Shown piece after piece: positions 27,624-56,275 of a stretch of DNA of 64,000 nt (positions are counted from its first letter, which is position 1; every line of letters starts with the position of its first letter). The notes beneath the pieces were generated by a model. That model had not been told where the DNA came from. It did not search any database and saw only the letters and a program-made list of their open reading frames with translations. Location of the stretch: IMG/VR virus record IMGVR_UViG_3300014826_000003. The stretch is one strand, 5' to 3'. The stretch is from an uncultured virus (IMG/VR IMGVR_UViG_3300014826_000003) (Duplodnaviria; Heunggongvirae; Uroviricota; Caudoviricetes). Made by a program: the position numbers and the translations under genes.

Positions 27624-28526
27624 ATGGACAATCTAGACTTTCAGTACAGTGTAGAGGGTCTAGACGTTTCATTTACAGTAGTTTCCAAAGTCCCAGCTAA
27701 AGCCATCTTTTCCTGGGACTTTGGTGATGATGGGGAGGATGGTTACAACGTAAAATCCCCAACTCACTCATATGAAAAATCTGGATTCTATACTGTAACT
27801 TTAGAGGTAACAACCTCAGATGGTTCCTTTGAGGCTACGGCTTCTAAGATGGTAATCGTATCTACGATAGCCAAGACCCATCTAACAGGAAGTATCTATT
27901 CCCTGATCAATGAGTACATTCCTCATGAGTTGTCGGATCCGATGACCGCTGATCAGAAATCTCTCTATATCAACAAGTGGCAATTATATATCTATCCATT
28001 ACTGGCTCGTCCTAGAGGACAAGAAATTCCCGTAGAACATTATAACGACGAGTTATACTACGAAGGACTAGAAAACCAGCTTATAATGGAATTGGCAGCT
28101 TGGGATTATCTCAATGTAAAGATAACAAATATCTTAACTGGTACTGGGCAATATCTAAGGGAGTTAACCCAATCAGGTGCAACCGAGGATGATGATGCCT
28201 ACACCAGAACTAGAGGTGACCGAGTTAAACATATCCAAACTGGGCCTACTGAGGTAGACTATTACGATTCACTATCGGAAGCAGCTTCTGCCTTGTTCAA
28301 AGCCTATACCCAAGCGGTTAAGCCAGGAGGTGTGATGGATGAACTCAGGAAGAATCTATGTATGTTGGCTGAACGAGTTGGTGTATACCTCCCATTCTGT
28401 CATCAACCCTATACTCCTGTAATACCACGAGTTGTAAATCGAAGAAATCCAGGACCATTAGGTGGACCCAATCCCACGGCTCCTCTTAATCGGGACAGAG
28501 TTGTAACTTTACATCCTAAGAAGTAA
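27624..28526 (+). CDS. PKD-domain protein, probable head-tail adaptor
   Basis: WDFGDD...PTHSYEKSGFYTVTLEV (PKD); VKHIQTGPTEVDYY adaptor-like hairpin. Confidence 0.7.
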   Translation: MDNLDFQYSVEGLDVSFTVVSKVPAKAIFSWDFGDDGEDGYNVKSPTHSYEKSGFYTVTLEVTTSDGSFEATASKMVIVSTIAKTHLTGSIYSLINEYIPHELSDPMTADQKSLYINKWQLYIYPLLARPRGQEIPVEHYNDELYYEGLENQLIMELAAWDYLNVKITNILTGTGQYLRELTQSGATEDDDAYTRTRGDRVKHIQTGPTEVDYYDSLSEAASALFKAYTQAVKPGGVMDELRKNLCMLAERVGVYLPFCHQPYTPVIPRVVNRRNPGPLGGPNPTAPLNRDRVVTLHPKK

Positions 28527-29043: not shown

Positions 29044-29472
29044 ATGGCAAAATTCCTAAACTTACGCTGGACTAGGGTAAAGTCAGAGAAGAACACCCCT
29101 GAGGGTTACTACTATGACTCCAACTTGGTAAAGCTTAACAGTTCTGCTGACATTCAGGTTCAGTTGGATAGTGAGGATGATGTTGAGATCAGTTATCTCC
29201 TGAGTCTATCTGGAGATCGCTTTGTCTCCATCACCCAGGACTACTTTGCTAAACTTCACATCAGGCCGGTCCCCGTAAAAGGTATGGGTCAAATCGTGAA
29301 GTTTAGAATCAACAAGCTTCCGGATTACGCTGTAGTAATTGGCGACGATATCGAAGATGCCGGTGATGTTAACCCTGACGATGAATCGGATATCAAAAAC
29401 GGCTTTGCCGGGTCAGAAGGTGAATATTTCCGGGATAAGAATTCTGAGGTATTGGTAGGCAAAAACTCTTAA
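29044..29472 (+). CDS. hypothetical virion protein
   Basis: ORF before the fibre gene. Confidence 0.55.
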   Translation: MAKFLNLRWTRVKSEKNTPEGYYYDSNLVKLNSSADIQVQLDSEDDVEISYLLSLSGDRFVSITQDYFAKLHIRPVPVKGMGQIVKFRINKLPDYAVVIGDDIEDAGDVNPDDESDIKNGFAGSEGEYFRDKNSEVLVGKNS

Positions 29473-29485
29473 ACAATAATAAATT

Positions 29486-32400
29486 ATGTACGTATCAAAG
29501 TATTATACCTGCGAAGAAATCGATGAACGGTTATTGAAAGGTTACTACGATGACTTTGTAAATGCCGGATTCGTTGGTACACAGGAGGAGTTCTTCCGTT
29601 TCGTACTGTCTATCTCCAACAAGGTAGACAAGGAGGAAGGTAAGGGCTTATCTACCAATGATTTCACCGATGAGCTCAAGGAAAAGCTTGATAGCATAGA
29701 TGAGGGTGCCAAACTTATCACAAAGGTCTCTCAGTTAGAGAATGACCTCAACTACCAGACCGCTGAACAAGTACAGGCTGCAATCGATGCTCTTATCAAT
29801 GCTGCTCCGGAAGCTCTTGATACTCTAAAAGAGTTGGCTGAGGCTTTGGGTAATGATCCTAACTTTGCTACCAACATCGTTAATAAGTTGACCCAAGTAC
29901 AGGCTCAGCTTAACGATGAGATAGCTAGGGCTACTCAGGCAGAGGCTGACCTTGGTGCTCGAATCGATAATCTGGGAGGAGACCTGGAGACTAAGGTCCA
30001 GGCTCTAAACGATAAGATTGATGCTACAAAGGCTGCTCTTGAGGAAAAGATCCAAGCAGTCCAGGATAAGCTTGATGCTGACAAGGCTGACCTTGCCGAT
30101 TTCAAGGTAAAGGAGGCTGAGGATATAGCTCAAGCTAAGGAACAGGCTCATCAGGAAGTAGATGCCGAGAAAACTCGTGCTATGGCTGCTGAGGCTGATC
30201 TCCAGCAAGGCTTGGACACTTTGGAACAAAAGGAGGTTGCTGATATTTCCAACCTCCAGCAGCAGATTACTCAGGAGGCAGCTTTACGTGCTCAGAAGGA
30301 TCAGTCCTTGACTGACCAACTGGCGAATGAAACTGCTGCTCGTCAAACTGCAGATCAAACTCTGCAGCAGAATATCGACCAAGAGGTAACAAACCGAGAG
30401 GCTGCTATCGAGGCCCTTGAACAGGAACTTCAATCCGACCTGTCTGCCCGTCAGACTGAGCTTAATGCTAAGATCGATACTGAGATATCCGATAGAAAGG
30501 CTGGTGACTTACAGAACCAGACTGACTTGGCTGTTGAAAGATCTGAACGTCAATCAGAGGATGCAATCATCAACCATAAGATTGAGGATTTGCAGTCTGC
30601 TATGTCTGGTCAACAGGATACTCTTCTCCAGAAGATCAACCAGGAGATTCAGGATCGTACTGATGCTGATGCTCTACTGGATGAGAAGAAGGTAGATAAG
30701 AGGGAAGGTTATGATCTCTCAAAGAACAACTTTACCGACGAGCTTCTTAACAAACTGAATAACATTCAGGAGGGAGCTAATAAGGTAGAGAAGGTTTCAG
30801 AGTTACTCAATGACCTTGACTTCCAAACTGGTGAACAGGTAGAAGCTAAAATTCAAGAGCTTATAGGTAGTGCTCCTGATTTGCTTGATACCCTCGAGGA
30901 AATCGCTAGAGCTTTGGGTGAAGATCCGAACTTTGCGGCTACTATGACTCGTAAGCTTACAGCTTTGACTGAACAGCTTAATGCAGAAATAGAGACTCGT
31001 CAGGAAAAGGATACTGATCTCCAAACTCGCTTGGCTCAAGAGGTTCAGGACCGTAAGGATGCAGATGCTCTCATCCGTGAATCATTGGCAGAAGAGAAAG
31101 CTAACCGTCAGGAAAAGGATCAGGTTCTTAGGGATCTGATTGATACTAACAAGGCGGCTCAGGATGCAGTTAATGCTTCTGTGGCTGATGAGTTAGCTGA
31201 TCTCAAGCAGGATCAAAGCTCCGGCATGAACGAGCTCCGAGGTCTGATAGACACCAACATCGCTAACATACAGCGTAACTTCGAAATCCTCCAAGCTATT
31301 CAAGCTACCTTCGGGGATGTAGAAACGTTGGTTAACGAGAAGGTAGCTGCTGAGAAAACTCGAGCTGAGGCTAAGGAAGCTGAATTACTCCAGAGGATTC
31401 AGGAGCTAGTAACCGATTACACTACAAAGATAAATACTCTTAACAGTACGCTTTCGGCCGCACTAGAGGCAGAAAAGACGGCTCGACAGGATGCCGATGC
31501 TGAACTACGAGAGTTAATCAATGAGGGTAGCGGTAGCTTAGCTGAGGAAAAGGCTGCTCGTGAGTTAGGTGATACTCAGCTCCAGTCTCAGATTGATTCT
31601 GAGAAGGTAGCTAGGGAAACATCCGATACTCAGAACCTGCAGAAGATTACTCAGGAGATCCAAGATCGTAAGGATGCTGACAATGAGATCAAAACTTCGG
31701 TTAACACCGAAAGATCAGAACGTCAGGCTGCCGATGATGCTGAAGAGGCTGCTCGTATTGCTGCTGATGATGCCTTGAGAACTCAGATAGGTTCTCAATC
31801 AGAGGCTCTGCTCAATGAGAAAGCTGAACGTCAGGCTGCAGATACCACTCTACAGACTAACATCAATAACGAGAAGACTTCTCGTGAAACTGCTGATAAT
31901 AACCTCCAGGTTCAGATCGATGCTAATAAGACTAACCTGGAAAATGAGACTAATCAACGTACTCTTGGTGATCAGCAGTTGACACAGAAGATCAACAAGG
32001 AGATCGATGATCGAGTTGCAGAGATCGCAAGATTAGATGCTCTTATACAACAGAAGCAAGATATCCTTAGATTAGGTTATGGCTTGGCTTTTGACCAAGA
32101 GGGTTTACTCAATGTAACTATCGATGGTACCATATACAAGATCGTAGGTTCATTACCAGAGCGACCTGCTACTGGTATGGAAGGTAAGATCTATTGCGTA
32201 CCAGTGGCTTCTGCTGGAGCTCAGAATGTTTACACGGAGTACCTCTGGATAGAGGATTCTCAGTCTTGGGAAATCATCGGTACATTCAGTCCTGAGATAG
32301 ACCTTACACCGTATGCTACTATTGAGTGGGTAACTGCTGAACTGGCTGCTAAGTCTACAGCAATAGAGTCTCTTACACAGGCTCTGGCTGATGAAACAGT

Positions 32401-32929
32401 AGAGAGGAAGGCTAAGTACAACGAGCTCCAGGAAGCTCTTAATACTGAGAAGGCTAACCGACAGGAAGCTGATTCACTCCTCAACGGTCGTATAGATCAG
32501 ACTAATACAGCCCTACTCCTTGAGGTTCAGGATCGTAAGATTGCTGATCAGGGCTTGAAGAATGACATCACAAATGAGTCTGCTGCTAGGGTACTCGGGG
32601 ATCAGCAACTACAGCTTAACTTGGATCAGGAGGCTACAGCTCGACAGGAAGCCGATGGAGTACTTGATCAGAAGATTGAGGATGTTAAAACCGAAGTTGA
32701 GGAAACTCAGCAAGGTAAGATTGATGAACTTAATCAGAAGATCGAGGAACTGGAGGCTAAGATGGAAGAGCTCCCAACAGAACCTCTTACAACTGAAGAT
32801 ATCGAAACTATCTACAGGGAGGTTTATGATCCGGATTATGATCCTGATGCTCCAGACGATGAAGGTCCACTTTCCTATGACGATATCCTCGATATATTCG
32901 AAGAAGTTTATGGTTATAGACCAGAATAA
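29486..32929 (+). CDS. long coiled-coil fibre protein (1147 aa)
   Basis: Two copies of KVDK..G..LS.N.FTDEL...AP..LDTL.E.A.ALG.DPNFA; many E..AR..AD..L repeats. Confidence 0.75.
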   Translation: MYVSKYYTCEEIDERLLKGYYDDFVNAGFVGTQEEFFRFVLSISNKVDKEEGKGLSTNDFTDELKEKLDSIDEGAKLITKVSQLENDLNYQTAEQVQAAIDALINAAPEALDTLKELAEALGNDPNFATNIVNKLTQVQAQLNDEIARATQAEADLGARIDNLGGDLETKVQALNDKIDATKAALEEKIQAVQDKLDADKADLADFKVKEAEDIAQAKEQAHQEVDAEKTRAMAAEADLQQGLDTLEQKEVADISNLQQQITQEAALRAQKDQSLTDQLANETAARQTADQTLQQNIDQEVTNREAAIEALEQELQSDLSARQTELNAKIDTEISDRKAGDLQNQTDLAVERSERQSEDAIINHKIEDLQSAMSGQQDTLLQKINQEIQDRTDADALLDEKKVDKREGYDLSKNNFTDELLNKLNNIQEGANKVEKVSELLNDLDFQTGEQVEAKIQELIGSAPDLLDTLEEIARALGEDPNFAATMTRKLTALTEQLNAEIETRQEKDTDLQTRLAQEVQDRKDADALIRESLAEEKANRQEKDQVLRDLIDTNKAAQDAVNASVADELADLKQDQSSGMNELRGLIDTNIANIQRNFEILQAIQATFGDVETLVNEKVAAEKTRAEAKEAELLQRIQELVTDYTTKINTLNSTLSAALEAEKTARQDADAELRELINEGSGSLAEEKAARELGDTQLQSQIDSEKVARETSDTQNLQKITQEIQDRKDADNEIKTSVNTERSERQAADDAEEAARIAADDALRTQIGSQSEALLNEKAERQAADTTLQTNINNEKTSRETADNNLQVQIDANKTNLENETNQRTLGDQQLTQKINKEIDDRVAEIARLDALIQQKQDILRLGYGLAFDQEGLLNVTIDGTIYKIVGSLPERPATGMEGKIYCVPVASAGAQNVYTEYLWIEDSQSWEIIGTFSPEIDLTPYATIEWVTAELAAKSTAIESLTQALADETVERKAKYNELQEALNTEKANRQEADSLLNGRIDQTNTALLLEVQDRKIADQGLKNDITNESAARVLGDQQLQLNLDQEATARQEADGVLDQKIEDVKTEVEETQQGKIDELNQKIEELEAKMEELPTEPLTTEDIETIYREVYDPDYDPDAPDDEGPLSYDDILDIFEEVYGYRPE

Positions 32930-32968
32930 TTCACAACAATTAACAACAAATTAAAATCAAAGTAAACT

Positions 32969-33721
32969 ATGGCAAAGTATGTTGACAGTGCCGGTCTTAG
33001 ACAGGCGATGGAACTCCAGAAGTTGTACATTGATGCTCAGGTAGGAACCAAGCAGGATTCCTTCAGTGTCGGTACAGGTCTTTCACTGAACAACGGTGTT
33101 CTTGAGATCACCCTCGATCACACCATCTACAAGTTGCTCCAGACTCTGCCCGCTGAACCCGCTTCAGGTGATGAGAACAAGATCCACCTGATCCCCTCAG
33201 GTCAGCAGGATGCTCAGGGTAACAACATCTACGTTGAGTACATCTGGGTAGCCAGCGAGAACAAGTGGGAGAAGCTGGGTGAGCACAAGCTCGACGTAGA
33301 CCTGACTCCTTACCAGAGAATCGCTGACATCGTGGCTACGGTAAGTGCTTCCGGTGTTAACTTCTCGAAGGATGGTGGTACATCTAACTTCGCAAGCATG
33401 GTATTCGACCAGGCCAGCGACTTCGTTGGTACAGTAAACGGTACTCAGGTAAGCTTCGCTCTGAAGAACGTCCTCCAGGCTGCCGTAGCATCTGGCCTCT
33501 ACAAGATTGCCGTTGATGCTAAGGGCCGCGTAACTGGTACAGCCGCTGTTCAGCTCTCCGATCTGACCGATCTTGGTGTTGCTACTGCTGCTTCAGTTAC
33601 GGCTCTCGAAGGTCGTGTATCTGCCCTGGAGACTTGGAAGAACGATCCGCTGACCACAGCGGAGGTGGTTACCATGTTCAATGAGATCTATGGTACCTCC
33701 TACAGTGCTTCAGGCAACTAA
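32969..33721 (+). CDS. fibre-associated protein
   Basis: Shares the IYK...LP.....KI....N.Y.EY.W....WE..G....DLTPY domain with the 1147-aa fibre; YKIAVDAKGRVTG fibre motif. Confidence 0.7.
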   Translation: MAKYVDSAGLRQAMELQKLYIDAQVGTKQDSFSVGTGLSLNNGVLEITLDHTIYKLLQTLPAEPASGDENKIHLIPSGQQDAQGNNIYVEYIWVASENKWEKLGEHKLDVDLTPYQRIADIVATVSASGVNFSKDGGTSNFASMVFDQASDFVGTVNGTQVSFALKNVLQAAVASGLYKIAVDAKGRVTGTAAVQLSDLTDLGVATAASVTALEGRVSALETWKNDPLTTAEVVTMFNEIYGTSYSASGN

Positions 33722-33741
33722 GTCTGTAAGAAGGCTTTAAC

Positions 33742-33766
33742 AGGAGTGGGGTAATCCCACTCCTTT
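33742..33766 (+). terminator. terminator hairpin
   Basis: aggagtggg-gtaat-cccactcct followed by tt. Confidence 0.65.
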
Positions 33767-33797
33767 CTGTGTTTTTATTAACTTAATGTAAATCAAT

Positions 33798-35849
33798 ATG
33801 ACGAAGTATGTTTCCAAATCAGCTCTTCGCCAAGAGATGGACCTTACCCATCGATACATCGATGAGAAGGATGCCGTTCAGGCCAGAGCTATTGCTTCTG
33901 AAGCAGAACAACGGGCTTTAGAAACTGCTGCTCTCAACGAGAAAGCAAAGGACCTCACTAAGGAGGTAAACAGATTAGGATTAACTACTTCTGAGGCTTA
34001 CGTAGTAGCTGAGTATACCAAGGGTGCAAATGATTATGCACCAGTGGAAACTAAGGGTGACACATCAGTGCTTACCAAGTTGTATAACTTCTACTTGCTA
34101 GACACAACCGATAACCGTGGTCAGAAGACCAAGCCGGTTGGCAAGTTGAAGAAAAACAACCTGCTCCGTTTCACTGACGGTACCTTTGCTCCTACAGTAG
34201 GCATCACTCAGGAGATGTATAATCAGTGTATGGGCCATGACATCTACACCGAAGAAGGTGGCGTCTATACGAAGGTATATGATGCAGGAGCTTATGATGC
34301 CGAAGCTCAGTGGGAGGTTGATAAGGCCTTGATCAAGGCTGGTTCAGCTGCTCAGACTCTCTACATGTCTGATGATGGAGAGACTTACACTGCAGTAACT
34401 CATACCCTCCGTCCGTGGGAAACTACAGAAACCAAGTACACCATTGGCTTGGCTGCTGGTATGGACATCTACCCAGTGGATAACCAGGAGGGTGATGATG
34501 GTAAGTACTACAAAGGTCTCTTCTTTGAGGCTGGTACTTGGAACGGTATTGAACTCTCCGAGGAGAACAAGATCGCTCCTACTGCTATCGGACCTTGCCC
34601 AGTTACTACCATACAGGAGAACGGTCTTATCAAGACACGTAACTTCTTCTACCTGTATAAGGGTATGACCAACTGCCAGAGTAACGGTGGCTTACTGCCT
34701 AACCACGATTTCGTGGAGGACCGTACCTATCCTCGTGTCAATGACATGAATCAGGTAAACAATATGCGGTATGCTCGTAACAACAACTACGATGTTGCTA
34801 AGCCGTACCCATTTGCTGAGGGTGGATATCCTGCTACTAATGCTTTCATTATTGCACTAGAACTGCTTGCAGGTACACGTTACTTACACCAAGCTAACCT
34901 GTTTGGTTCAGGTATCTCCTCGAACGACGGTTGCAATGAGGGTAACTTCTTTACCTCCGGTGGTGTTCGTCTCCGTGCACAGGGTGATACAGACTGGAAC
35001 TATAAGACTTTCGGAACTAACTCGAGCCCGCTGCAGTACAATGCTTCTGGTTCAACTTCTGATATGTCTCAAGTTCTTTCTGACTACTATCCGAAAGAGC
35101 AGTGCATGGAATCTCAGATGGCAGCTTCTTATGCTGCTGAGCTGGGTATCAATCCTACGGTAGATGCCGCTAACCCGAACTACTTCGAGTTCTATGGCAG
35201 TAAGTACTACTACATGAATGTTCCTGGTATGAACGGTCTCCGTGACGGTGACATGAACGTACGAGTATACAAGTACATTCAGAAGGAAGTAAGTGCTTAC
35301 AAGGCTAATGCTGCTACTACATTCGAGGTAGAGGTTATCCTTCGTATGTCTCTGTTCGGAGGTGCTAACCTGAGTGGTGATATCTGGGCTTACAATGGAG
35401 GTGGTTTGGAGATGGTAGGTAGTTGTACGGTTAATCCTAGCACGTCACGTGTAGGCAACAAGATCGACATCTACGTAGAACCAGACCAGACCAAGTGGCA
35501 TTCAGAGACCGTTATCTCGAAGAATGGTTTGGACCAGGTATTCGGATTTGAGGCTTTGTATCGACACGTACTGGAGACCACGAACTTGGGAGACAGCTAT
35601 ACTCTTACTCGTGAAGGCTTTACTCCGTGGAAGACGGCTAAGGCTAGTTCCATGGCACAGGGAGAATGCTACCACCAGTGGGACAACAACTACTGGGGAT
35701 CTCTTAATCAGCGAGTGCGGATCGAGTCGCTCTTCCGCGGTTGGTCCCTTTACGCTAACTGTTCTCCTCGGACCCTGGATGCGAATTACGCTGCCTCAAA
35801 TACGTATCGGGCCTCCTCTGGTTCTGCCCAGGCTCTTATCGAGCCGTAG
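33798..35849 (+). CDS. DGR target protein (receptor-binding/fibre tip, probable C-type-lectin fold)
   Basis: The 3' end carries the VR; NLSGDIWAY resembles the GN(V)WEW motif of CLec/FGE-fold DGR targets. Confidence 0.85.
   Translation: MTKYVSKSALRQEMDLTHRYIDEKDAVQARAIASEAEQRALETAALNEKAKDLTKEVNRLGLTTSEAYVVAEYTKGANDYAPVETKGDTSVLTKLYNFYLLDTTDNRGQKTKPVGKLKKNNLLRFTDGTFAPTVGITQEMYNQCMGHDIYTEEGGVYTKVYDAGAYDAEAQWEVDKALIKAGSAAQTLYMSDDGETYTAVTHTLRPWETTETKYTIGLAAGMDIYPVDNQEGDDGKYYKGLFFEAGTWNGIELSEENKIAPTAIGPCPVTTIQENGLIKTRNFFYLYKGMTNCQSNGGLLPNHDFVEDRTYPRVNDMNQVNNMRYARNNNYDVAKPYPFAEGGYPATNAFIIALELLAGTRYLHQANLFGSGISSNDGCNEGNFFTSGGVRLRAQGDTDWNYKTFGTNSSPLQYNASGSTSDMSQVLSDYYPKEQCMESQMAASYAAELGINPTVDAANPNYFEFYGSKYYYMNVPGMNGLRDGDMNVRVYKYIQKEVSAYKANAATTFEVEVILRMSLFGGANLSGDIWAYNGGGLEMVGSCTVNPSTSRVGNKIDIYVEPDQTKWHSETVISKNGLDQVFGFEALYRHVLETTNLGDSYTLTREGFTPWKTAKASSMAQGECYHQWDNNYWGSLNQRVRIESLFRGWSLYANCSPRTLDANYAASNTYRASSGSAQALIEP
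35718..35830 (+). repeat. DGR variable repeat (VR)
   Basis: 113-bp ungapped match to the TR with 15 mismatches, 14 opposite TR adenines. Confidence 0.95.
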
Positions 35850-36083: not shown

Positions 36084-36196
36084 CGGATCAAGTCGCTCTT
36101 CCGCAGTAGGTCCAATAACGCTAACTGTTCTCCTCGGAACCTGAATGCGAATAACGCTGCCTCTAATACGAATCGGAACAACTCTGGTTCTGCCCA
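36084..36196 (+). ncRNA. DGR template repeat (TR)
   Basis: AAC/AAT-rich copy of the VR, intergenic, directly upstream of the RT. Confidence 0.95.
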
Positions 36197-36306: not shown

Positions 36307-37935
36307 ATGGATACGAATCAGACTTCTCTGATGGAGGTATCTACCAGGGCAAGTGGAAGAAATCGCCATAGTTCTGGTCAAAGCCCGAGGTCATGCAAGA
36401 GTACAAGTGGCGAAGAGTTAATGGCTCTATTGGGACCTGCTCCCAAGAAACCGAATCCTAACCACTTATTTGAGACGATCGATTTAGCTCTAGTAGAACA
36501 AGCTGCTAAGAAAGCTTTCGAAGGTCATAATAGCAAATCTGATGTTAAGGCTTTTAAAGCTAACTTTCAAACCCGAATAGAAAGGATTTACAATGCCATC
36601 AAGGATGGTACATACATCAACCTTATTGGCTACCGTAAATTGGTTAAGTATAACCACAAAAGGAAACGTCGGTTAATCGACTCCCCTAACCTAGATACTC
36701 GGATAATGCAGCATCTATGGCTTATTCTAATCGTACCAATCTATGAAAGTAAGGACAACGGTAACGGGATGAACTGCAAACCTGATCATGGAATAACTTC
36801 CGATGTTAAAAGGTTTAGCACTCTACATAATCAGAAACATCTGTATTATGATCTCAGAGAATTCAATTACCTACTCCTTATGGACCAACGTAAATGTTAC
36901 GAACATATTACACCTAAGATCTATAGGAAACAGATTAAACACTTTACTCACGACAAAGCGTTTATAGATTTCGGAGAGAAGATAGGTTTTATAAACAACA
37001 AACTTCCAATAGGTACTCCTACCTCTCCTTACATCCATCATATCTGTTTATGGGTTTCGGATGTATTTATTCGTGATAATACGGATTGGTCAGAAAGGTA
37101 TGCTGATGATAACGCTATGGCTTTTAAAACAATCGAAGATCTCAATGCTTTCAAGTGGAGACTTAAAAACCTTTGGTGGTACTGCTTACATCTAAGAGCT
37201 AAACGGCAGATGACCAGGGTACTTGAGATAAACAAGTGTCCTTTTGACTTCTGCGGTTATGTAGCTCATAGGAATCCGGGAAAATTAGTAGCAGAACACA
37301 ACAAAGGCTTTGTCAAAATGAGGGAGAAGACATTGCTTAGGGCAAAGTTAAAATGTAGGCAGGCTAATACTTCGGCTGAAAAGGTTAACCGTTCTTGGTC
37401 ATCTTATTTTGGTCAGATGCAACATGCGGATGCGTTCCGTGAGATGGAATCAATAGAGAAATCTAATATGAAGCTTAGAGCTCTAACTGACGAGATAAGG
37501 ATTGACCGTGAAATAGATGCTCCTACTGTCGATATTAAAGATCTACTCGGAAAGAAATTTAACCTGTACAGATACAGGATCAAGGAATACAAAGGAAAGC
37601 CTAATTGGCTCCAATGTCTTATCGGAAGTTCTGAGCAGTTACCTCTTAAGGATGTACCTGAACGGAACAAGAAGAAAAAGAAAGATACTACACGGCCTAC
37701 TAAGAAGTTAAAGAAGCTCAAAGATTCTGAAGATGATGTAGAGTATGCCTACGAGTTTCATGGAGACTATCAAGGTTTGATTGCGTATCTCCAAAAACTT
37801 GAAGACCAACATTCTGATGATCCACAATGGTTCATGCCTATAGAGGAGGCTGAAGTGGTGAAAGATGGAGAGTGGGTATTCAAGGGTAGTACAAACAAAA
37901 TTAAGTACATAAACAAGAAGAAATATTATGGTTGA
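36307..37935 (+). CDS. DGR reverse transcriptase with C-terminal extension (start may be ATG 36421)
   Basis: KRRLI, DTRIMQH, DQRKCYEHI, LPIGTPTSP, RYADD, DFCGY, SYFG motifs; adjacent TR/VR. Confidence 0.92.
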   Translation: MDTNQTSLMEVSTRASGRNRHSSGQSPRSCKSTSGEELMALLGPAPKKPNPNHLFETIDLALVEQAAKKAFEGHNSKSDVKAFKANFQTRIERIYNAIKDGTYINLIGYRKLVKYNHKRKRRLIDSPNLDTRIMQHLWLILIVPIYESKDNGNGMNCKPDHGITSDVKRFSTLHNQKHLYYDLREFNYLLLMDQRKCYEHITPKIYRKQIKHFTHDKAFIDFGEKIGFINNKLPIGTPTSPYIHHICLWVSDVFIRDNTDWSERYADDNAMAFKTIEDLNAFKWRLKNLWWYCLHLRAKRQMTRVLEINKCPFDFCGYVAHRNPGKLVAEHNKGFVKMREKTLLRAKLKCRQANTSAEKVNRSWSSYFGQMQHADAFREMESIEKSNMKLRALTDEIRIDREIDAPTVDIKDLLGKKFNLYRYRIKEYKGKPNWLQCLIGSSEQLPLKDVPERNKKKKKDTTRPTKKLKKLKDSEDDVEYAYEFHGDYQGLIAYLQKLEDQHSDDPQWFMPIEEAEVVKDGEWVFKGSTNKIKYINKKKYYG

Positions 37936-38350
37936 ACTGATCAAAGTAGAAGTACCTGCTTCTATAGAACAGGACTTCAATCCCAACGATAGTGTTTGGG
38001 TAGATGGTAAGTTGAGGATTCTCCGTGGTACTCGTTATGACACTTTCTTCATTCAGCATGAGACCCGAGAGATCCCGGTTGACAAGCACGAAGATGAGCA
38101 GGCTGAACCCGAGGTTCGTCAGGCTATCTTCGCATTCCCTATCCAGGTAGAGAAACCTGCTACCTACGATATGGTGATTGATGCTGCTGAGCGTACGGTC
38201 TACAATCTCCGTAACGATCGTGAAGCTAACTCGTTCACTGCTTCAATGAGTCGTAAGTTCCGCTTGGATCCTCAGGACCCCGAGGTAACCGAACATGATG
38301 CTTTCATCGAGCTAGTTAAGTCAGAGATTAAACCTTGGATGAAGCAGTAA
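37928..38350 (+). CDS. hypothetical protein coupled to the RT (possible DGR/fibre accessory)
   Basis: Overlaps the RT stop; helical C-terminus TYDMVIDAAERTVY...EHDAFIELVK. Confidence 0.6.
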   Translation: MVELIKVEVPASIEQDFNPNDSVWVDGKLRILRGTRYDTFFIQHETREIPVDKHEDEQAEPEVRQAIFAFPIQVEKPATYDMVIDAAERTVYNLRNDREANSFTASMSRKFRLDPQDPEVTEHDAFIELVKSEIKPWMKQ

Positions 38351-38904: not shown

Positions 38905-40623
38905 ATGGCTTTTATTCTAGACAAGAGCACAGGCAAGGGTACGGCAACAGTTAAAATTACTCCTGACGGTCCCAATTCTTCTGGTAGTGCTATAACTAGC
39001 CAATTACAAATCCAGGTTAGGGGAGTTACCAAGGCTGTAGTTCAACTGAAACAAAAAGCTGCCCAAGTTTACAAGGTATTCGTTCAAACCGACGTTAACT
39101 CAGTTGGTGCTGGTGGTGGAGATATCAAGGTAACTTATTGGGTTACACTCAATGGTCAAGTTACTGAAGATGTACCTCATCTAGACGGTACTACTAATGT
39201 GGTTAACTCAGGTACTGATGCAGACGGTAAACACTGGGTAGTAGACAAGGTCCCTGCCAATTCTGGTGGTGTAACTTACACAGCCACCTTCAATGATAAA
39301 GAGGCTACTGCTTCAGTAACTCAGAGTAGTTTGGAAGTTAACCTCTCAATCAATAACCCATACGTTTCTGGAGAAGGTGGTAGTTCAATATTCTCTTACT
39401 GGGCCGTTGAGAACGGTAATATCGTAGGAGATAACCTTGAGTTGGTATTTGAGGCTGAGTCTTCTGATGATGTAACCTATACTCTTGGTACTGCTACTAA
39501 GGATTCCTTTGGTAAGGTAAGCCAGAGTATTACTCTACCAGCTAATACCATCAATGAGGTTAAAGAGCTTAAGTTCCATGCTAGGCATATCCCAACAGGC
39601 TCTGTTTCAGATACTGTTACTGTAAGCTTGATGGGTAAAGATATGACCGTACTACCAGACTTCGACTTCTTTACCTTCGGTTATGAGTGGGAAGAATCTG
39701 CTGGTAGAGACCTTGACTCAGCTACTCTGGTAGAGGGCTCAGATATACAAATTGCTGGTAAAGATCTAGGTGAGTACTTTGTAGGCTTTGGTGGTAACGG
39801 TAATTCTCAGGAGGGCGTTGAAAACTACTTACACTGGGGAGGAGATAATACCTCATCTGGTTCAGAAGGTGCTTTCATTAACTGGAAGTCAATCTGTGAC
39901 CGTGACTTGATCAGCGAGGGTATCACTAAGCTGTATGCTTACATCTACGGTAACTGGTATGGTAGTAAGGGCTCTGGTAATATGACTTTGGTGTTCCAAA
40001 CCTATAAGGGCACAGGCATGGTTCAAGATGGCTATGTATTTAAACCAGATGAGAATACTGAACTGGTATCTCAGGAAAGGAAACTCATCTACTGCAAAGC
40101 CTTCTCATCAGCTAATGCTCCAGGCTCTAAGTTAGAGAACGTAAAGAACTACTACTCATTGCTTGCTACTATCGAGTACGATGTAGCTACTTCTAATGCA
40201 GTACTTAAACCCTCTTCATCTGCTAATGCTGGAGGTCGTAGTGTAACTGCTCACGTTACCTTCAACGGTTCTGTAATAGACTTCGGTAATGCTGGCTCTG
40301 GTACTAATACCGTGAACATAGCTGCTCAGCAGTCTGGTACTCCAACATTAGCCTTCAGTAATGCTGTAGAGGTAGTTGATGATAACACTGGAGTTCACAA
40401 TAACCCAATGTACTGTACAGAAGCTACTACACCTTCTGATTGGTTACATCCAACCTTTAACAAGGACTCCTCTGGTAATATTATCAGTGTAACTTTCCAG
40501 GCCGATACCAATACTACTGGAGCTAGCCGTAGTACTTCCATCAGTTTCAAGTTCAAGCCTTCAGTAAGAAGTAATGGTACCGGTCAGAATACTCTAATAG
40601 TAACCTTCACACAAGCTGCATAA
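38905..40623 (+). CDS. Ig-like/BACON-like domain virion protein
   Basis: Repeated beta modules ending V.Q (PANS.., ADTNTTGASRSTSISF...VTFTQAA); central WEESAGRDLD...WGGDN domain. Confidence 0.6.
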   Translation: MAFILDKSTGKGTATVKITPDGPNSSGSAITSQLQIQVRGVTKAVVQLKQKAAQVYKVFVQTDVNSVGAGGGDIKVTYWVTLNGQVTEDVPHLDGTTNVVNSGTDADGKHWVVDKVPANSGGVTYTATFNDKEATASVTQSSLEVNLSINNPYVSGEGGSSIFSYWAVENGNIVGDNLELVFEAESSDDVTYTLGTATKDSFGKVSQSITLPANTINEVKELKFHARHIPTGSVSDTVTVSLMGKDMTVLPDFDFFTFGYEWEESAGRDLDSATLVEGSDIQIAGKDLGEYFVGFGGNGNSQEGVENYLHWGGDNTSSGSEGAFINWKSICDRDLISEGITKLYAYIYGNWYGSKGSGNMTLVFQTYKGTGMVQDGYVFKPDENTELVSQERKLIYCKAFSSANAPGSKLENVKNYYSLLATIEYDVATSNAVLKPSSSANAGGRSVTAHVTFNGSVIDFGNAGSGTNTVNIAAQQSGTPTLAFSNAVEVVDDNTGVHNNPMYCTEATTPSDWLHPTFNKDSSGNIISVTFQADTNTTGASRSTSISFKFKPSVRSNGTGQNTLIVTFTQAA

Positions 40624-51590: not shown

Positions 51591-53315
51591 ATGGCACTAA
51601 CAAACCCATGGACAAACCCTCTTCGGAGGTCCTTCCAGGATATTAAGGCCGACATGTTAACGGCTCTACAGAATATCAAAGGACCAGATGGAAATCCCTT
51701 GATAACTGATATATCCGAAGGTAATATCTTTGTAATCATCATCTCTCTGTTTGCGGCTATAGCAGAAGTCTTACACTTCTACATAGACAACATGGCAAGA
51801 GAATGTTTTATCAGTACTGCTAGACGGTATAGCTCTGTACAGAAGCAAGGCCTATTGGTAGACTACAAACCTAGAGGAGCTAATGCTGCTACAGTAGATG
51901 TAGTACTTACCAGACAACTCAACGGAATAGAAGCTGGAGCTCAGATTAAGATCCCAAAAGGTACAGAATTTACTGATACGGCTGGTAATCATTGGGAATC
52001 AGAGAGAGACGTTATCTGGTCTGCTTACGAGTTGAGTTGTATAGTACCACTGATACAACATCAGAAGTATAACGGCTCTGTACTTAATGGTACCAAGATT
52101 ACTTCTGCTGATGCTATCCTATACCTGGACACCAGCTTGGGAGGTAAGTACATAGAACAGAAGTCAGTAACTCTATCCTTAGGAGGTACTGCTTGGACTC
52201 AGGTAGATACGTTTGCTTATTCAAAGCCTTCAGATAAACACTTCTTGGTAACTGTAGATGAGAATGACCAGCCGATGATAATCTTCGGTGATGGTAAATT
52301 CGGATCTAAGCCATCCGTAGGTTCTACTATCCAAGTAACCTTCTATATAACGGCTGGAGGTTCTGGTAATGTAACAAAAGATGCTATCACTACTGTACCC
52401 AATGTGGTATCAGCTTCAGTACCAGATGCTACTTGCAATAATCCTTATGGATCAGGAGATGGTTTGGATTATGAGGACATAGATCAGCTCCGTAATCATA
52501 TACCTCTTCATGCAAGGACTATGGCAGTAGCTATCACTAAGCAGGACTTCATAGACTGTGCTAAGTTGGTACCTGGAGTAAATGACTGTGCAGTAGATTA
52601 CATCTGTGGTAAACGTATCGATCTATACATTAGCCCAGTAGACCGAGAGTCTAACGGTGGCATTGCTTCTAGTACTCTTTGCAATAATGTAAAGAATTAT
52701 TTAGAACAACACGCTCCAATGGCTACGTGGTTACACGTATTTGCTGCAGGCATTGCCAAGATACACCTTACTATTGATGTAACTGGTAAACCTTCTTACC
52801 GTAGAGATGAGATACAGAATCAGATACTTAGGGCTCTGTATAATCAGTATGCCTTCTCTAAAGCTAAGATAGGAGGTAAGGTACGTATATCTGATATCTA
52901 TGCTCTGATCGATAATTTGGAATCGGTAGATTACTTGTACATCAAGAAGTTCTATGTAGGCCCCTGGCCTAAGATAATATATGGAGATAAGCAATTAGAT
53001 CTAAGCCTTGAAGGTATAGAGAAGGCTACTGGGAAGATGACTTACATACTAAGCTTCTCTAGTGCTAATCAATTCTCCATCTACTCGACAACGGGAGGCT
53101 TTAGCCTTGAGAATCAAGCTGTAGGTAATGTTACAGTTGATGACCAAAAGAATGGCTTCAATTTCTCTATTAAGCTTTCTGGTTCTTATGCGCAAGGAAA
53201 CAAGTATGCTTTCACCATATCAGAACCGAACCACGACTACGAGGAGCCTGGCTTTAACCAGGTGGTTTTCGATAGTGATAGCCTACTAACATTAACTATA
53301 AATGAGACAGTATAA
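51591..53315 (+). CDS. baseplate wedge J / gp6-like
   Basis: FISTARR, IIFGDGKFG..P, GDGLDYEDIDQLR, AITKQDF. Confidence 0.85.
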   Translation: MALTNPWTNPLRRSFQDIKADMLTALQNIKGPDGNPLITDISEGNIFVIIISLFAAIAEVLHFYIDNMARECFISTARRYSSVQKQGLLVDYKPRGANAATVDVVLTRQLNGIEAGAQIKIPKGTEFTDTAGNHWESERDVIWSAYELSCIVPLIQHQKYNGSVLNGTKITSADAILYLDTSLGGKYIEQKSVTLSLGGTAWTQVDTFAYSKPSDKHFLVTVDENDQPMIIFGDGKFGSKPSVGSTIQVTFYITAGGSGNVTKDAITTVPNVVSASVPDATCNNPYGSGDGLDYEDIDQLRNHIPLHARTMAVAITKQDFIDCAKLVPGVNDCAVDYICGKRIDLYISPVDRESNGGIASSTLCNNVKNYLEQHAPMATWLHVFAAGIAKIHLTIDVTGKPSYRRDEIQNQILRALYNQYAFSKAKIGGKVRISDIYALIDNLESVDYLYIKKFYVGPWPKIIYGDKQLDLSLEGIEKATGKMTYILSFSSANQFSIYSTTGGFSLENQAVGNVTVDDQKNGFNFSIKLSGSYAQGNKYAFTISEPNHDYEEPGFNQVVFDSDSLLTLTINETV

Positions 53316-55792: not shown

Positions 55793-55795
55793 GCT

Positions 55796-56272
55796 ATGGT
55801 AGAAATAACAACAACTCTATTAGAGGCTATAGGTTTATTGTTGGGAGGTAGCGGAATAGGCTACCTTCTAACTTTAAAGTATGCCCGTCAGCAAGCTAGA
55901 GGAGAAGCTCGGCAAGCTGAAAATGAAGCGACTAAAGCAGTTCAAGATGTATATCAAGAACTAGTTGATGATGTTAAGAAGGATAGGGAAGAACAGAAAC
56001 AGTACATTGCTGAATTGAAAGAAGACCGGAATCACCTTCGTCAGGACAGGGATGAACTTCGAGTAGAAAACCTGAAGTTACGGAAAGTAACTAATGAACT
56101 ACAAGATGAGATCCAGGATATTAAAAAGGTTCAGGCCAGACAAGGTAGAAAACTGGAGGCTATTACCCCTTTCTTATGTAGCCGTACAGAATGTACGGAT
56201 CGCATCAGAGCTACTATCAACGAACTTACCAAACGTAAGAAGAGTACTGAAGAAGAATATAAAGACGTATAA
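55796..56272 (+). CDS. single-TM coiled-coil protein (holin/lysis candidate)
   Basis: N-terminal TM LLEAIGLLLGGSGIGYLL, long coiled coil, C-x4-C-x2-R. Confidence 0.5.
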   Translation: MVEITTTLLEAIGLLLGGSGIGYLLTLKYARQQARGEARQAENEATKAVQDVYQELVDDVKKDREEQKQYIAELKEDRNHLRQDRDELRVENLKLRKVTNELQDEIQDIKKVQARQGRKLEAITPFLCSRTECTDRIRATINELTKRKKSTEEEYKDV

Positions 56273-56275
56273 ATC

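What the first reader, a model, noticed from the sequence alone, without database searches (positions are those of the whole stretch)
29486..33870. Modular 'plug-and-socket' fibre ending in the DGR-diversified tip
Seen: the 1147-aa fibre ends in two copies of one helix motif (EPLTTEDIETIYREVY, GPLSYDDILDIFEEVY), and the 250-aa protein ends in one (DPLTTAEVVTMFNEIY). The 250-aa protein and the DGR target begin with the same motif (MAKYVDSAGLRQAMELQKLYID / MTKYVSKSALRQEMDLTHRYID). The first two proteins also share an ~85-aa domain ending DLTPY. Inference: C-terminal motifs dock onto N-terminal motifs, giving stalk (2 sockets), then extender (plug + socket, possibly self-polymerising), then variable tip (plug only). 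The result would be a branched or extendable, multivalent display of DGR variants.
Basis: inference. Interest (0 to 1): 0.7.

Follow-up and report, generated by a model that had tools for sequence, protein, structure and literature searches.

The report
Plug-and-socket joints in phage fibre
Three neighbouring genes of a gut phage seem to build one fibre from separate pieces that clip together through short matching end-motifs, with a hypervariable binding protein as the tip, and the same clip recurs in many unrelated phages.

Summary
The 1147-aa fibre ends in two copies of a short helix motif and the 250-aa protein in one. The 250-aa protein and the DGR target share an N-terminal helix motif, and fibre and 250-aa protein share a C-terminal module (BLASTP E 6e-23).

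Comparative evidence supports it. Among 137 evaluable fibre genes of this phage family, all 13 that end in the C-motif are followed by a gene starting with the N-motif; 0 of 124 others are. The motif variants co-vary, which is clearest in two fibres 79% identical, L085 and L177. Some stalks are only 124-183 aa, an anchor plus the C-motif. Distant relatives of the DGR target carry other N-termini. Natural fusions lack both motifs at the junction.

The same grammar recurs in unrelated phage contigs (26 of 28 loci) and in a crAss-like phage. No solved structure matched, and none of the five motif strings searched was in print.

The fibre genes lie between head and neck genes, so this may not be a baseplate tail fibre. 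Branching, meaning two tips per fibre, is plausible. Self-polymerisation is untested. I rate it a new variant of a known kind, multi-protein fibres joined by docking peptides.

The parts
29486..32929 (+). Stalk fibre, 1147 aa. It has a conserved virion-anchor N-terminus (MYVSKYYTCEEIDERLLKGYYDD), a long coiled coil with two 'phage fibre repeat' segments, an internal ~82-aa beta domain, and two C-terminal helix motifs.
   Evidence: ORF. PHROG tail-fibre families match residues 88-140 and 441-524. The N-terminal anchor is conserved in 149 distinct relatives.
32069..32314 (+). ~82-aa beta domain of the fibre (residues 862-943, ends DLTPY).
   Evidence: BLASTP against the 250-aa protein. The domain is widespread in fibre proteins: 5665 library proteins at E<=0.001 with the extender profile A2.
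32780..32827 (+). C-motif 1 of the fibre (EPLTTEDIETIYREVY, residues 1099-1114), proposed socket 1.
32828..32863 (+). Acidic, proline-rich linker (DPDYDPDAPDDE) between the two C-motifs.
   Evidence: The L177 type has an equivalent linker, STFDPDDPDNLVV.
32864..32911 (+). C-motif 2 of the fibre (GPLSYDDILDIFEEVY, residues 1127-1142), proposed socket 2.
   Evidence: A second motif is present in 866-aa relatives and absent from 842-aa relatives.
32969..33721 (+). Extender, 250 aa. In order: N-motif helix, ~83-aa beta domain (residues 33-115), a GLYK...GRVTG module, a short coiled coil, and the C-motif helix.
32969..33034 (+). N-motif of the extender (MAKYVDSAGLRQAMELQKLYID), proposed plug.
   Evidence: L16, K18, Y20 and D22 are invariant in 13 homologs. 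Predicted helix 7-24.
33644..33691 (+). C-motif of the extender (DPLTTAEVVTMFNEIY, residues 226-241), proposed socket.
   Evidence: Predicted helix 230-241.
33798..35849 (+). Tip, the DGR target, 683 aa. N-motif helix, then a coiled coil (predicted helix 7-59), then a globular body, with the variable region at the C-terminus.
33798..33863 (+). N-motif of the tip (MTKYVSKSALRQEMDLTHRYID), proposed plug.
   Evidence: In 18 homologs L16, Y20, D22 and D25 are invariant, and the next invariant residue is V70.
35718..35830 (+). Variable repeat (VR) of the DGR, residues 641-678 of the tip.
36084..36196 (+). Template repeat (TR) of the DGR.
   Evidence: 15 mismatches to VR, 14 at TR adenines.
36307..37935 (+). 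DGR reverse transcriptase, 542 aa.
   Evidence: PF00078 E 5.9e-10. phrog_1423 E 1.6e-29.
29044..29472 (+). Conserved 142-aa protein just upstream of the fibre. It is a candidate virion attachment site for the stalk, by position only.
   Evidence: It precedes the fibre gene in the related loci. No family match.

Best explanation
The three genes encode the pieces of one serially assembled fibre. It is presumably trimeric, on an uncultured gut myophage of about 85 kb.

The stalk attaches to the virion by its conserved N-terminus. At its far end the coiled coil stops at a proline and is followed by a 12-15-residue amphipathic helix, the C-motif. The next protein begins with a roughly 20-residue helix, the N-motif, that leads into its own coiled coil or beta domain. 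I propose that the three C-motif helices of one trimer and the three N-motif helices of the next pack together into a small helical joint.

The stalk carries two C-motifs separated by an acidic proline-rich tether. The extender carries one N-motif and one C-motif. The DGR-diversified protein carries only an N-motif and is therefore the distal end. The likely result is a fibre that displays the hypervariable tip once through the extender and perhaps a second time directly on the stalk's second motif.

Shown here: the motifs, their conservation, their strict pairing across gene boundaries, their co-variation, and DGR activity. Inferred: direct contact between the motifs, trimer stoichiometry, the branching pattern, and the position on the virion.
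For: 1. Co-occurrence. In loci fetched around relatives of the upstream 169-aa gene and of the extender and tip, 149 distinct fibre sequences share the anchor N-terminus. Of these, 137 were complete and had a next gene. Twelve end in the C-motif by regex. A thirteenth, L093 (...ITEQEIHDIVFPL followed by MASFLDKAGLTKFWELIK), I added by eye. All 13 are followed within 11-86 nt by a gene starting with an N-motif. Of the 124 without a C-motif, 0 are: 104 have a Peptidase_S74-type end (PF13884 E 1.1e-6 on one), 17 have another end, 1 is followed directly by the neck gene, and 2 are split assemblies. The 13 represent about 8 lineages.

2. Class co-variation.
- C '[FY]xE[VI]Y' goes with N 'LQKGYID'.
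- C 'MAE[KN]VFG' goes with N '[IV]KGYVDxNVxKK'.
- C 'LTEEEVxTLVNxxLES' goes with N 'KFLSAxGL..V[KR][LI]IKK'.
- C 'LTESEIEDIFKELI' goes with N 'ILDSEGLKSTLKLI'.

3. Natural experiment. The L085 and L177 fibres are 79% identical over 840 aa and their extenders 52%. L085 has one class-II motif on the fibre, a class-II C-motif on the extender and a class-II N-motif on a non-DGR tip. L177 has an extra 26-aa tether plus a class-I motif on the fibre, a class-I C-motif on the extender and a class-I N-motif on its DGR tip. The L085 record is 81,596 bp and rated complete. It has no DGR-target homolog, and its N-motifs occur only in extender and tip.

4. Minimal stalks of 124-183 aa (L184, L185, L190, L093) consist of the anchor, a short coil and the C-motif, each followed by a 516-666-aa tip with an N-motif.

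5. The N-terminus is a swappable adaptor. Relatives of the DGR-target body at 42-49% identity match only from residues 8-84 onward (mostly 45-84) and have unrelated N-termini. The N-motif itself sits on unrelated bodies: LRR_5 plus CBM (E 3e-52) and a weak pectate-lyase-like match.

6. Fusions. P0200 (1064 aa) is a stalk fused to an extender-like module. P0203 (706 aa) is an extender body fused to a leucine-rich body. Both lack the C- and N-motifs at the junction. The window's own fibre contains a fused extender-like module.

7. Generality.
- A scan for DNA encoding FLDKxGLxxLWxKIK gave 30 loci.
- In 28 of them the motif lies at residues 2-15 of an ORF. In 26 of those 28 the ORF just upstream ends in ...ITNAEIDAIVA-like motifs.
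- All 17 of 195 ORFs with the strict C-regex are followed by an N-motif gene.
- Three-protein chains occur (L269, L274, L287).
- A crAss-like phage shows two such joints.

8. Both motifs are predicted helices.
Against: There is no physical or structural evidence. The complex predictor was unavailable, and the AlphaFold monomer output gives no contacts.

I defined the motif classes after looking at the data, and the lineages are few and related, so the co-variation carries no formal statistic.

The loci were selected through the N-motif, so that count is ascertained on one side. Two of the 28 (L281, L286) lack a visible upstream C-motif gene.

In L084 a 277-aa gene without motifs lies between the extender and the tip.

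In the window all three C-motifs and both N-motifs are of one broad class. Nothing there says which plug goes into which socket. Motif 1, not motif 2, is the closer match to the extender's C-motif (7 of 15 against 5 of 15 identical by my count on the alignments), unlike in L177.

Co-inheritance of a 'fibre 3' end plus tip gene' cassette could produce the same neighbourhood pattern without direct contact between these particular residues.
Confidence: 0.68

Rival explanations
1. The N-motif proteins dock somewhere else: on the ~82-aa beta domain, on the stalk's anchor region, or on a neck protein. The C-motif is only a terminal cap that closes the trimeric coiled coil, as the foldon does for T4 fibritin. 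The two motifs travel together because recombination moves the fibre's 3' end and the tip gene as one cassette.
For: The C-motif always sits directly after a coiled coil and a proline. The beta domain is present in both stalk and extender. It is a very common fibre module whose role is unknown; fold searches gave nothing above Z 3.6. Cassette-like exchange is evident, since fibres share the N-terminus but have several kinds of ends.
Against: Minimal stalks of 124-183 aa have no beta domain, yet are followed by tips with an N-motif. Fibres that end in other ways never precede an N-motif gene (0 of 124). The motif classes change together between L085 and L177, although the rest of the fibre is 79% identical. 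A mere cap would not need to co-vary with the next protein's first 20 residues.
Confidence: 0.15
2. The downstream proteins bind the fibre's C-terminus as assembly chaperones or caps, like tail-fibre assembly (Tfa) proteins or T4 gp38. They need not be permanent structural extensions. The contact would be between N- and C-motifs, but transient for at least the extender.
For: Sixteen of the 28 loci have a small 132-143-aa protein with the N-motif right after a fibre gene, which is the usual place and size for such chaperones. From my own recall, not from any call, Tfa-type proteins bind fibre tips through a conserved N-terminal part.
Against: A DGR keeps diversifying the 683-aa protein, which makes sense only if it is displayed. 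The extender itself ends in a C-motif and is followed by another N-motif gene. Fusion proteins place the extender and tip bodies in one chain with the stalk.
Confidence: 0.08
3. The shared motifs reflect only common descent. The extender would be a duplicated end of the fibre gene and the N-terminus would have been copied between neighbouring genes. The motifs would have no interaction role.
For: Fibre 850-1118 and extender 21-245 are clear paralogs (E 6e-23). The two N-termini share 71% DNA identity over 48 nt (family D18).
Against: The motifs are the most conserved residues of otherwise fast-evolving termini. They are kept on unrelated bodies and in unrelated phages. They always occur in the order 'C-motif, then N-motif' across a gene boundary.
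Confidence: 0.05

Closest known systems
Branched dual receptor-binding-protein systems of Klebsiella podophages (KP32, K11, KP34 type): RBP1 with an anchor and branching domain, RBP2 with a short conserved N-terminal docking peptide
   Same: A second, separately encoded binding protein is attached through a short conserved N-terminal peptide to a site on the first protein. The tips are exchangeable. I saw the search listings and abstract starts of PMC6872550 and PMC13352976.
   Different: There the socket is a T4gp10-like branching domain inside RBP1. Here the proposed socket is a 12-15-residue helix at the very C-terminus, after a coiled coil. No gp10-like domain was detected. The proteins here show no sequence relation to those, and the module is encoded between head and neck genes of a myophage.
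T4 long tail fibre built in series from gp34, gp35, gp36 and gp37, and the gp38 or Tfa-type proteins that sit on fibre tips (recalled, not taken from any call)
   Same: One fibre is built head to tail from the products of consecutive genes. The N-terminus of each distal piece binds the C-terminal end of the proximal piece. The last piece carries the binding specificity.
   Different: No sequence similarity was seen. The joints here are short, recognisable helix motifs that recur in very different phages and come in co-varying classes. The tip is diversified by a DGR.
Bordetella phage BPP-1 Mtd on its tail fibres
   Same: A DGR-diversified trimeric protein sits as a separate subunit at the fibre end. 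According to passages of PMC2408619, each fibre appears to carry two Mtd trimers, 12 per phage, and this multivalency raises binding strength about a million-fold. Two sockets on the stalk here would give the same kind of display.
   Different: According to section 2.5 of PMC10743442, Mtd is thought to attach by an N-terminal beta-prism. Here the attachment element is a helix motif followed by a coiled coil. The body of the target found no match to Mtd or any solved fold. BPP-1 is a podophage whose fibres are on the tail.
Fibres with a C-terminal Peptidase_S74 intramolecular chaperone
   Same: In the most abundant sister clade, the homologous fibre with the same anchor N-terminus ends in this domain (PF13884). 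It is the alternative solution for the distal end.
   Different: The window's fibre has no S74 domain and instead ends in the two C-motifs. The genes that follow S74-type fibres begin MGEIATWSAVK..., not with the N-motif.

Membership tests
Diversity-generating retroelement (DGR) cassette | Reverse transcriptase gene next to the repeats | tested here: met
   PF00078 E 5.9e-10 and phrog_1423 E 1.6e-29 for 36307-37935.
Diversity-generating retroelement (DGR) cassette | TR/VR pair that differs almost only at TR adenines, with VR at the 3' end of the target gene | tested here: met
   113-nt repeat with 15 mismatches, 14 at TR adenines. VR covers residues 641-678 of 683. Four near-identical genomes differ at those sites.
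Diversity-generating retroelement (DGR) cassette | Variable region displayed on a C-type-lectin-like fold | tested here: inconclusive
   No Pfam, PHROG or NCBIfam match. In the AlphaFold2 model the C-terminal part is below pLDDT 50, and Foldseek found nothing at E<=0.001.
Branched RBP systems of the KP32 type | Primary RBP with a T4gp10-like branching domain that receives the second RBP | tested here: inconclusive
   No such domain by Pfam. Fold searches of the extender model gave only Z<=3.6. The stalk itself was not modelled.
Branched RBP systems of the KP32 type | Secondary RBP with a short conserved N-terminal docking peptide | tested here: met
   This is an analogue, not a homolog. The N-motif is conserved in the extender and tip families and sits on unrelated bodies.
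phi29-type head fibre (Pfam PF11133) | Match to the Phage_head_fibr profile | tested here: not met
   The window's three proteins have no match even at E<=1. Some distant relatives match only in a helix-turn-helix repeat segment.
Fibres with a C-terminal S74 intramolecular chaperone | Peptidase_S74 domain at the C-terminus | tested here: not met
   Absent from the window's fibre. Present in the sister clade.
Proposed 'C-motif / N-motif joint' grammar (defined here) | A protein ending in [ILVP][TS]xx[ED][IV]... directly followed by a gene starting with a ...[YF][VL]DxxGLxxx[MW]...-type helix | tested here: met
   Window joints fibre to extender and extender to tip. 13 of 13 against 0 of 124 in the family. 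26 of 28 and 17 of 17 in unrelated contigs.
Proposed 'C-motif / N-motif joint' grammar (defined here) | Physical contact between the two motifs | not testable with these tools
No solved structure contains either motif.

The most novel reading that the evidence does not exclude
The C-terminal '...[IL]TxxE[IV]xx...' helix and the N-terminal '...[FY][LV]DxxGLxxx[WM]xKIK / LQKGYID' helix form a portable, undescribed joint. Thousands of uncultured phages would use it to bolt separately encoded fibre segments and tips together. These include myophages, small Firmicutes-type phages and crAss-like phages. Sequence classes of the joint would act as an address code that decides which tip sits on which socket. 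In this phage the code would place a DGR-diversified adhesin twice on each fibre, on fibres encoded in the head-neck module. That would make them accessory whisker-like fibres rather than the baseplate fibres, so the hypervariable protein would serve first-contact adhesion rather than the irreversible binding step.
Probability: 0.35. Interest if true: 0.8.

Novelty: new variant of a known kind. Interest (0 to 1): 0.62.

Why it matters
Most fibre and tip genes of gut phages are unannotated. Nobody can say from sequence which proteins sit on which. A short, recognisable pair of end-motifs that marks 'this protein plugs into that one' would let the order and branching of fibre pieces be read straight from genomes. 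It would show which proteins are the exposed tips, meaning the true host-range or adhesion determinants, including DGR targets. It would also offer natural junction points for swapping tips in phage engineering. For DGR biology it would explain how a variable protein with no recognisable anchor domain is mounted. It also suggests multivalent display, which in Bordetella phage BPP-1 is what turns weak variant binding into infection (PMC2408619, passages seen).

Tried and rejected
- The AlphaFold2 monomer of the extender (pLDDT 69) gave no meaningful fold match. The Foldseek PDB best was E 0.098. The best VIA-align wide score was Z 3.6. Weak rows (Z about 3) on the beta domain included a short chain of the phicrAss001 capsid entry and N-terminal parts of Acinetobacter phage tailspikes. 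These are too weak to use.
- The AlphaFold2 monomer of the tip (pLDDT 64) gave no fold match, so the C-type lectin fold is not confirmed.
- PDB sequence searches with the extender, with two N+C proteins from other phages and with an N-motif profile gave nothing, or only chance hits to nucleoporin helices. The fibre's N-terminal 140 aa hit only the generic 'APEALDTLKELA...NFA' repeat, in a 'tail collar fiber' and a staphylococcal 'fiber upper' chain.
- The idea that the shared beta domain is the phi29 head-fibre base was rejected. PF11133 matches in relatives fall on another segment.
- Near-identity DNA search of the phage collection found nothing. The major head protein found only two unnamed records, so I do not name a family. 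A link to 'Flandersviridae' is only a recalled lead. Passages of PMC8008677 were read and gave nothing on these genes.
- An alignment of N-termini was too variable for the search for related loci. A DNA pattern for TLQKGYID found only known loci plus two spurious ones.
- Matching proteins to one another by equal 'longest contig' length gave only a few pairs. Contigs of 82,934, 82,955 and 14,191 bp carry a two-motif fibre and a DGR target. One of 61,610 bp carries a truncated motif 2 and a DGR target. One of 79,838 bp carries a one-motif fibre and a class-II extender. I treat these as weak support.
- Earlier notes of this scan held nothing on this genome or sequence.
- Literature searches for the motif strings and for the concept found no description.

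Full report
**What is in the window.** The window is a tailed-phage genome with a contractile tail. In order it holds the following genes:
- large terminase (20962)
- portal (22455)
- protease (23921)
- major head protein (25982)
- a PKD-domain protein (27624)
- two small conserved proteins (28529 and 29044)
- the 1147-aa fibre (29486-32929)
- a 250-aa protein (32969-33721)
- a 683-aa protein (33798-35849)
- a reverse transcriptase (36307-37935)
- a 140-aa ORF
- a Neck1/tail-completion protein (38354)
- a BACON-domain protein
- tail sheath (41408)
- tape measure (44626)
- baseplate wedge (51591)

The fibre module is therefore encoded between the head and neck genes, not with the baseplate. Hundreds of related contigs of about 78-88 kb exist in IMG/VR: 392 and 357 stretches encode relatives of the 169-aa protein.

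**Checking the observation.**
- Fibre residues 850-1118 align with residues 21-245 of the 250-aa protein at E 6e-23. The alignment includes the ~82-aa domain ending DLTPY and the C-terminal motif.
- The first 24 residues of the 250-aa protein and of the 683-aa protein are 50% identical (E 1e-4).
- Across all six frames of the window, the motif regexes hit only these proteins.
- The 683-aa protein is a genuine, active DGR target. It has one VR/TR pair with 15 mismatches, 14 at template adenines. Four near-identical phage genomes differ from one another at exactly those sites.
- AlphaFold2 monomer models put helices on the N-motif (7-24) and C-motif (230-241) of the 250-aa protein (mean pLDDT 69). 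They put a long helix, 7-59, at the start of the tip.

**Conservation.**
- The 250-aa 'extender' has 73 near-length homologs. In an alignment of 13, the invariant N-terminal residues are L16, K18, Y20 and D22. The middle coiled coil varies from nothing to about 170 residues. Every member ends in the C-motif.
- The DGR target has more than 1200 homologs. The best 120 all start with the N-motif (...aLxxxMxLQKGYID...). In 18 aligned sequences L16, Y20, D22 and D25 are invariant, and nothing else is until V70.

**The N-terminus is an adaptor.** More distant relatives of the tip body (42-49% identity) in IMG/VR match only from residues 8-84 onward, mostly 45-84. In the 12 loci I inspected they carry quite different N-termini. 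Conversely, the N-motif is found on unrelated bodies. One is a BspA-type LRR plus CBM protein (L090, E 3e-52). Another is a weakly pectate-lyase-like protein (L085).

**Pairing across the gene boundary.** I collected loci around the conserved upstream gene and around the extender and tip. I then listed, for every distinct fibre sequence with the family's anchor N-terminus (MY.SKYYT..EID.RLL), its C-terminus and the start of the next gene.
- Of 149 distinct sequences, 9 were incomplete and 3 had no next gene in the locus. That leaves 137.
- Twelve end in the C-motif by regex. A thirteenth (L093) carries a variant that the regex missed.
- All 13 are followed by a gene that starts with an N-motif.
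- None of the other 124 is. Of these, 104 end in a Peptidase_S74 chaperone-type sequence (confirmed on one, PF13884 E 1.1e-6), and their next gene begins MGEIATWSAVK. Seventeen end ...FNFVIG. One (L092) is followed directly by the neck gene. Two are split assemblies.
- The 13 are not independent; they represent about eight lineages.

**Co-variation and a natural experiment.** The motif variants fall into classes that pair consistently:

| C-motif | N-motif of the next protein |
|---|---|
| [FY]xE[VI]Y | LQKGYID |
| MAE[KN]VFG | [IV]KGYVDxNVxKK |
| LTEEEVxTLVNxxLES | KFLSAxGL...IKK |
| LTESEIEDIFKELI | ILDSEGLKSTLKLI |
| ITEQEIHDIVFPL | FLDKAGLTKFWELIK |

The clearest case is L085 against L177. 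Their fibres are 79% identical over 840 residues and their extenders 52%.
- In L085 the fibre has one motif (MAENVFG type), the extender ends in the same type, and both extender and tip start with the KGYVDGNVSKK type.
- In L177 the fibre has the same first motif plus a 26-residue extension: an acidic proline-rich tether and a second motif of the ...FQEVY type. Its extender ends ...IFNEVYS, and its tip, a DGR target, starts ...LQKGYID.
- The L085 record is a complete 81.6-kb genome with no DGR-target homolog and no other N-motif protein.
- Among 120 relatives of these fibres, the 866-aa two-motif form and the 842-aa one-motif form are the two main types. There are also a few forms truncated in motif 2 and two that end in an extender-like coil.

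**Minimal stalks and fusions.**
- Four lineages have 'fibres' of only 124-183 residues. These are the anchor, a short coil and the C-motif, followed by a 516-666-residue protein that starts with the matching N-motif. Such a protein has little to do except link the tip to the virion.
- The library of representatives contains P0200 (1064 aa), a stalk continuous with an extender-like module. It also contains P0203 (706 aa), an extender body continuous with a leucine-rich tip. Both motifs are missing at each junction.
- The window's own fibre likewise contains a fused extender-like module.
- These fusions argue that stalk, extender and tip are collinear parts of one structure.

**Generality.**
- The window's motifs look like a divergent form of a commoner pair: [YF][VL]DxxGLxxx[MW] against FLDKxGLxxLW, and LTTAEVVTM against ITNAEIDAI.
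- A scan of IMG/VR for DNA encoding FLDKxGLxxLWxKIK returned 30 loci from contigs of 8-98 kb.
- In 28 of them the motif lies at residues 2-15 of an ORF. In 26 of those, the ORF that stops 20-52 nt upstream ends in ...SITNAEIDAIVA...AIPISVIDALN...KITNAEIEDICK or similar. Sixteen of the 28 belong to one family of small proteins.
- Of the 195 non-overlapping ORFs in these loci, 17 carry a strict C-motif in their last 14 residues. All 17 precede a gene starting with an N-motif variant, including three-protein chains in L269, L274 and L287.
- A crAss-like phage (cr131_1) shows two such joints.
- These loci were chosen through the N-motif, so the count is one-sided.

**What could not be shown.**
- The complex predictor was unavailable, so there is no structural test of contact.
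- Neither protein model found a solved fold.
- No PDB chain carries either motif.
- The five motif strings I searched occur in none of the papers held. A concept search surfaced only the Klebsiella branched-RBP work.

**Mechanism proposed.** After the coiled coil a proline breaks the helix. A short amphipathic helix follows, with hydrophobic residues at positions i, i+3, i+4, i+7 and i+8 of the C-motif. Three of these helices, with the three N-terminal helices of the next trimer, would form the joint. This is inference. The stalk's second motif hangs on an acidic tether. It appears together with a class-matched tip in L177. The most economical reading is a branch: motif 1 holds the extender, which holds a tip, and motif 2 holds a tip directly. 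In the window all motifs belong to one broad class, so the assignment is open and extender-on-extender chains cannot be excluded.

**Comparison with known systems.**
- The principle is known from the T4 long tail fibre (recalled, not from a call).
- It is also known from the Klebsiella KP32-type dual RBPs, where a conserved N-terminal peptide of RBP2 docks on a branching domain of RBP1 (PMC6872550 and PMC13352976; listings and abstract starts only).
- BPP-1 mounts two Mtd trimers on each fibre, and this multivalency is essential (PMC2408619, passages).
- Mtd is thought to attach by a beta-prism. The role of N-terminal helices on other DGR targets was left open in PMC10743442 (section 2.5 read).
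- What differs here is the nature of the joint, which is two short terminal helices; its class code; its spread across very different phages; and its use in a head-proximal module to carry a DGR tip.

**Verdict.** The docking interpretation is well supported by comparative genomics but not physically tested. Branching is plausible and self-polymerisation is open. It is a new variant of a known kind.

Noticed in passing
window 37928-38350 (+): A 140-aa ORF right after the RT has no family match. Homologs follow the DGR-type tip in L176, L177 and L178, but are absent from L085 and L090, which lack a DGR tip. It may be a DGR accessory protein or a tip-specific assembly factor.
   Followed up: partly
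L176 3242-3750; L178 11123-11631: In these relatives the DGR-target gene is followed after about 500 nt by the 137-aa gene, with no RT ORF between them. L177 has a 530-aa RT there. These may be RT-less, frozen versions of the cassette.
   Followed up: no
L094 and about 100 similar loci (e.g. L094 10927-18974): The most abundant sister clade has a ~2050-aa fibre ending in a Peptidase_S74 chaperone domain. It is followed by a ~600-aa BACON-domain protein that always begins MGEIATWSAVKTKVGLGK. This may be a different, also conserved, pairing.
   Followed up: partly
L005, L013, L014, L029 (genes upstream of the DGR-target relatives): Another recurring boundary. The upstream ~640-795-aa protein ends ...TLISNETLIKN[EK], and the DGR-target relative begins M..I.DIA....WGTLA.AID.NF. 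It is possibly a further joint type.
   Followed up: no
L084 9979-10812; L097 19014-19313; L165 19255-19932: Small proteins of variable length end in ...AALKT..TTT.A. They sit next to tip genes in different phage types and have no known function.
   Followed up: no
proteins P0391, P0405, P0396, P0400 (relatives of the L177 fibre): Some fibres end in the extender's terminal coil plus a class-I motif, which looks like fibre/extender recombinants. Others (853 aa) break off inside the tether, so motif 2 is lost. These could be frameshifts or real variants.
   Followed up: no
L256 11475-12418 (crAss-like phage cr131_1, gp77 and gp76): Under table 11 the annotated genes contain in-frame stop codons. 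This suggests stop-codon reassignment in this phage.
   Followed up: no
window 27624-28526 and 38905-40623 (+): A PKD-domain protein lies next to the head genes, and a BACON-domain protein lies between the neck and sheath genes. Both are candidate surface-exposed carbohydrate-binding decorations.
   Followed up: no
window 53315-57745 (+): ORFs of 825, 158 and 489 aa directly follow the baseplate wedge gene and have no family match. They are probably the baseplate-attached fibres. If so, the DGR-tipped fibre is a second, separate adhesion system.
   Followed up: no
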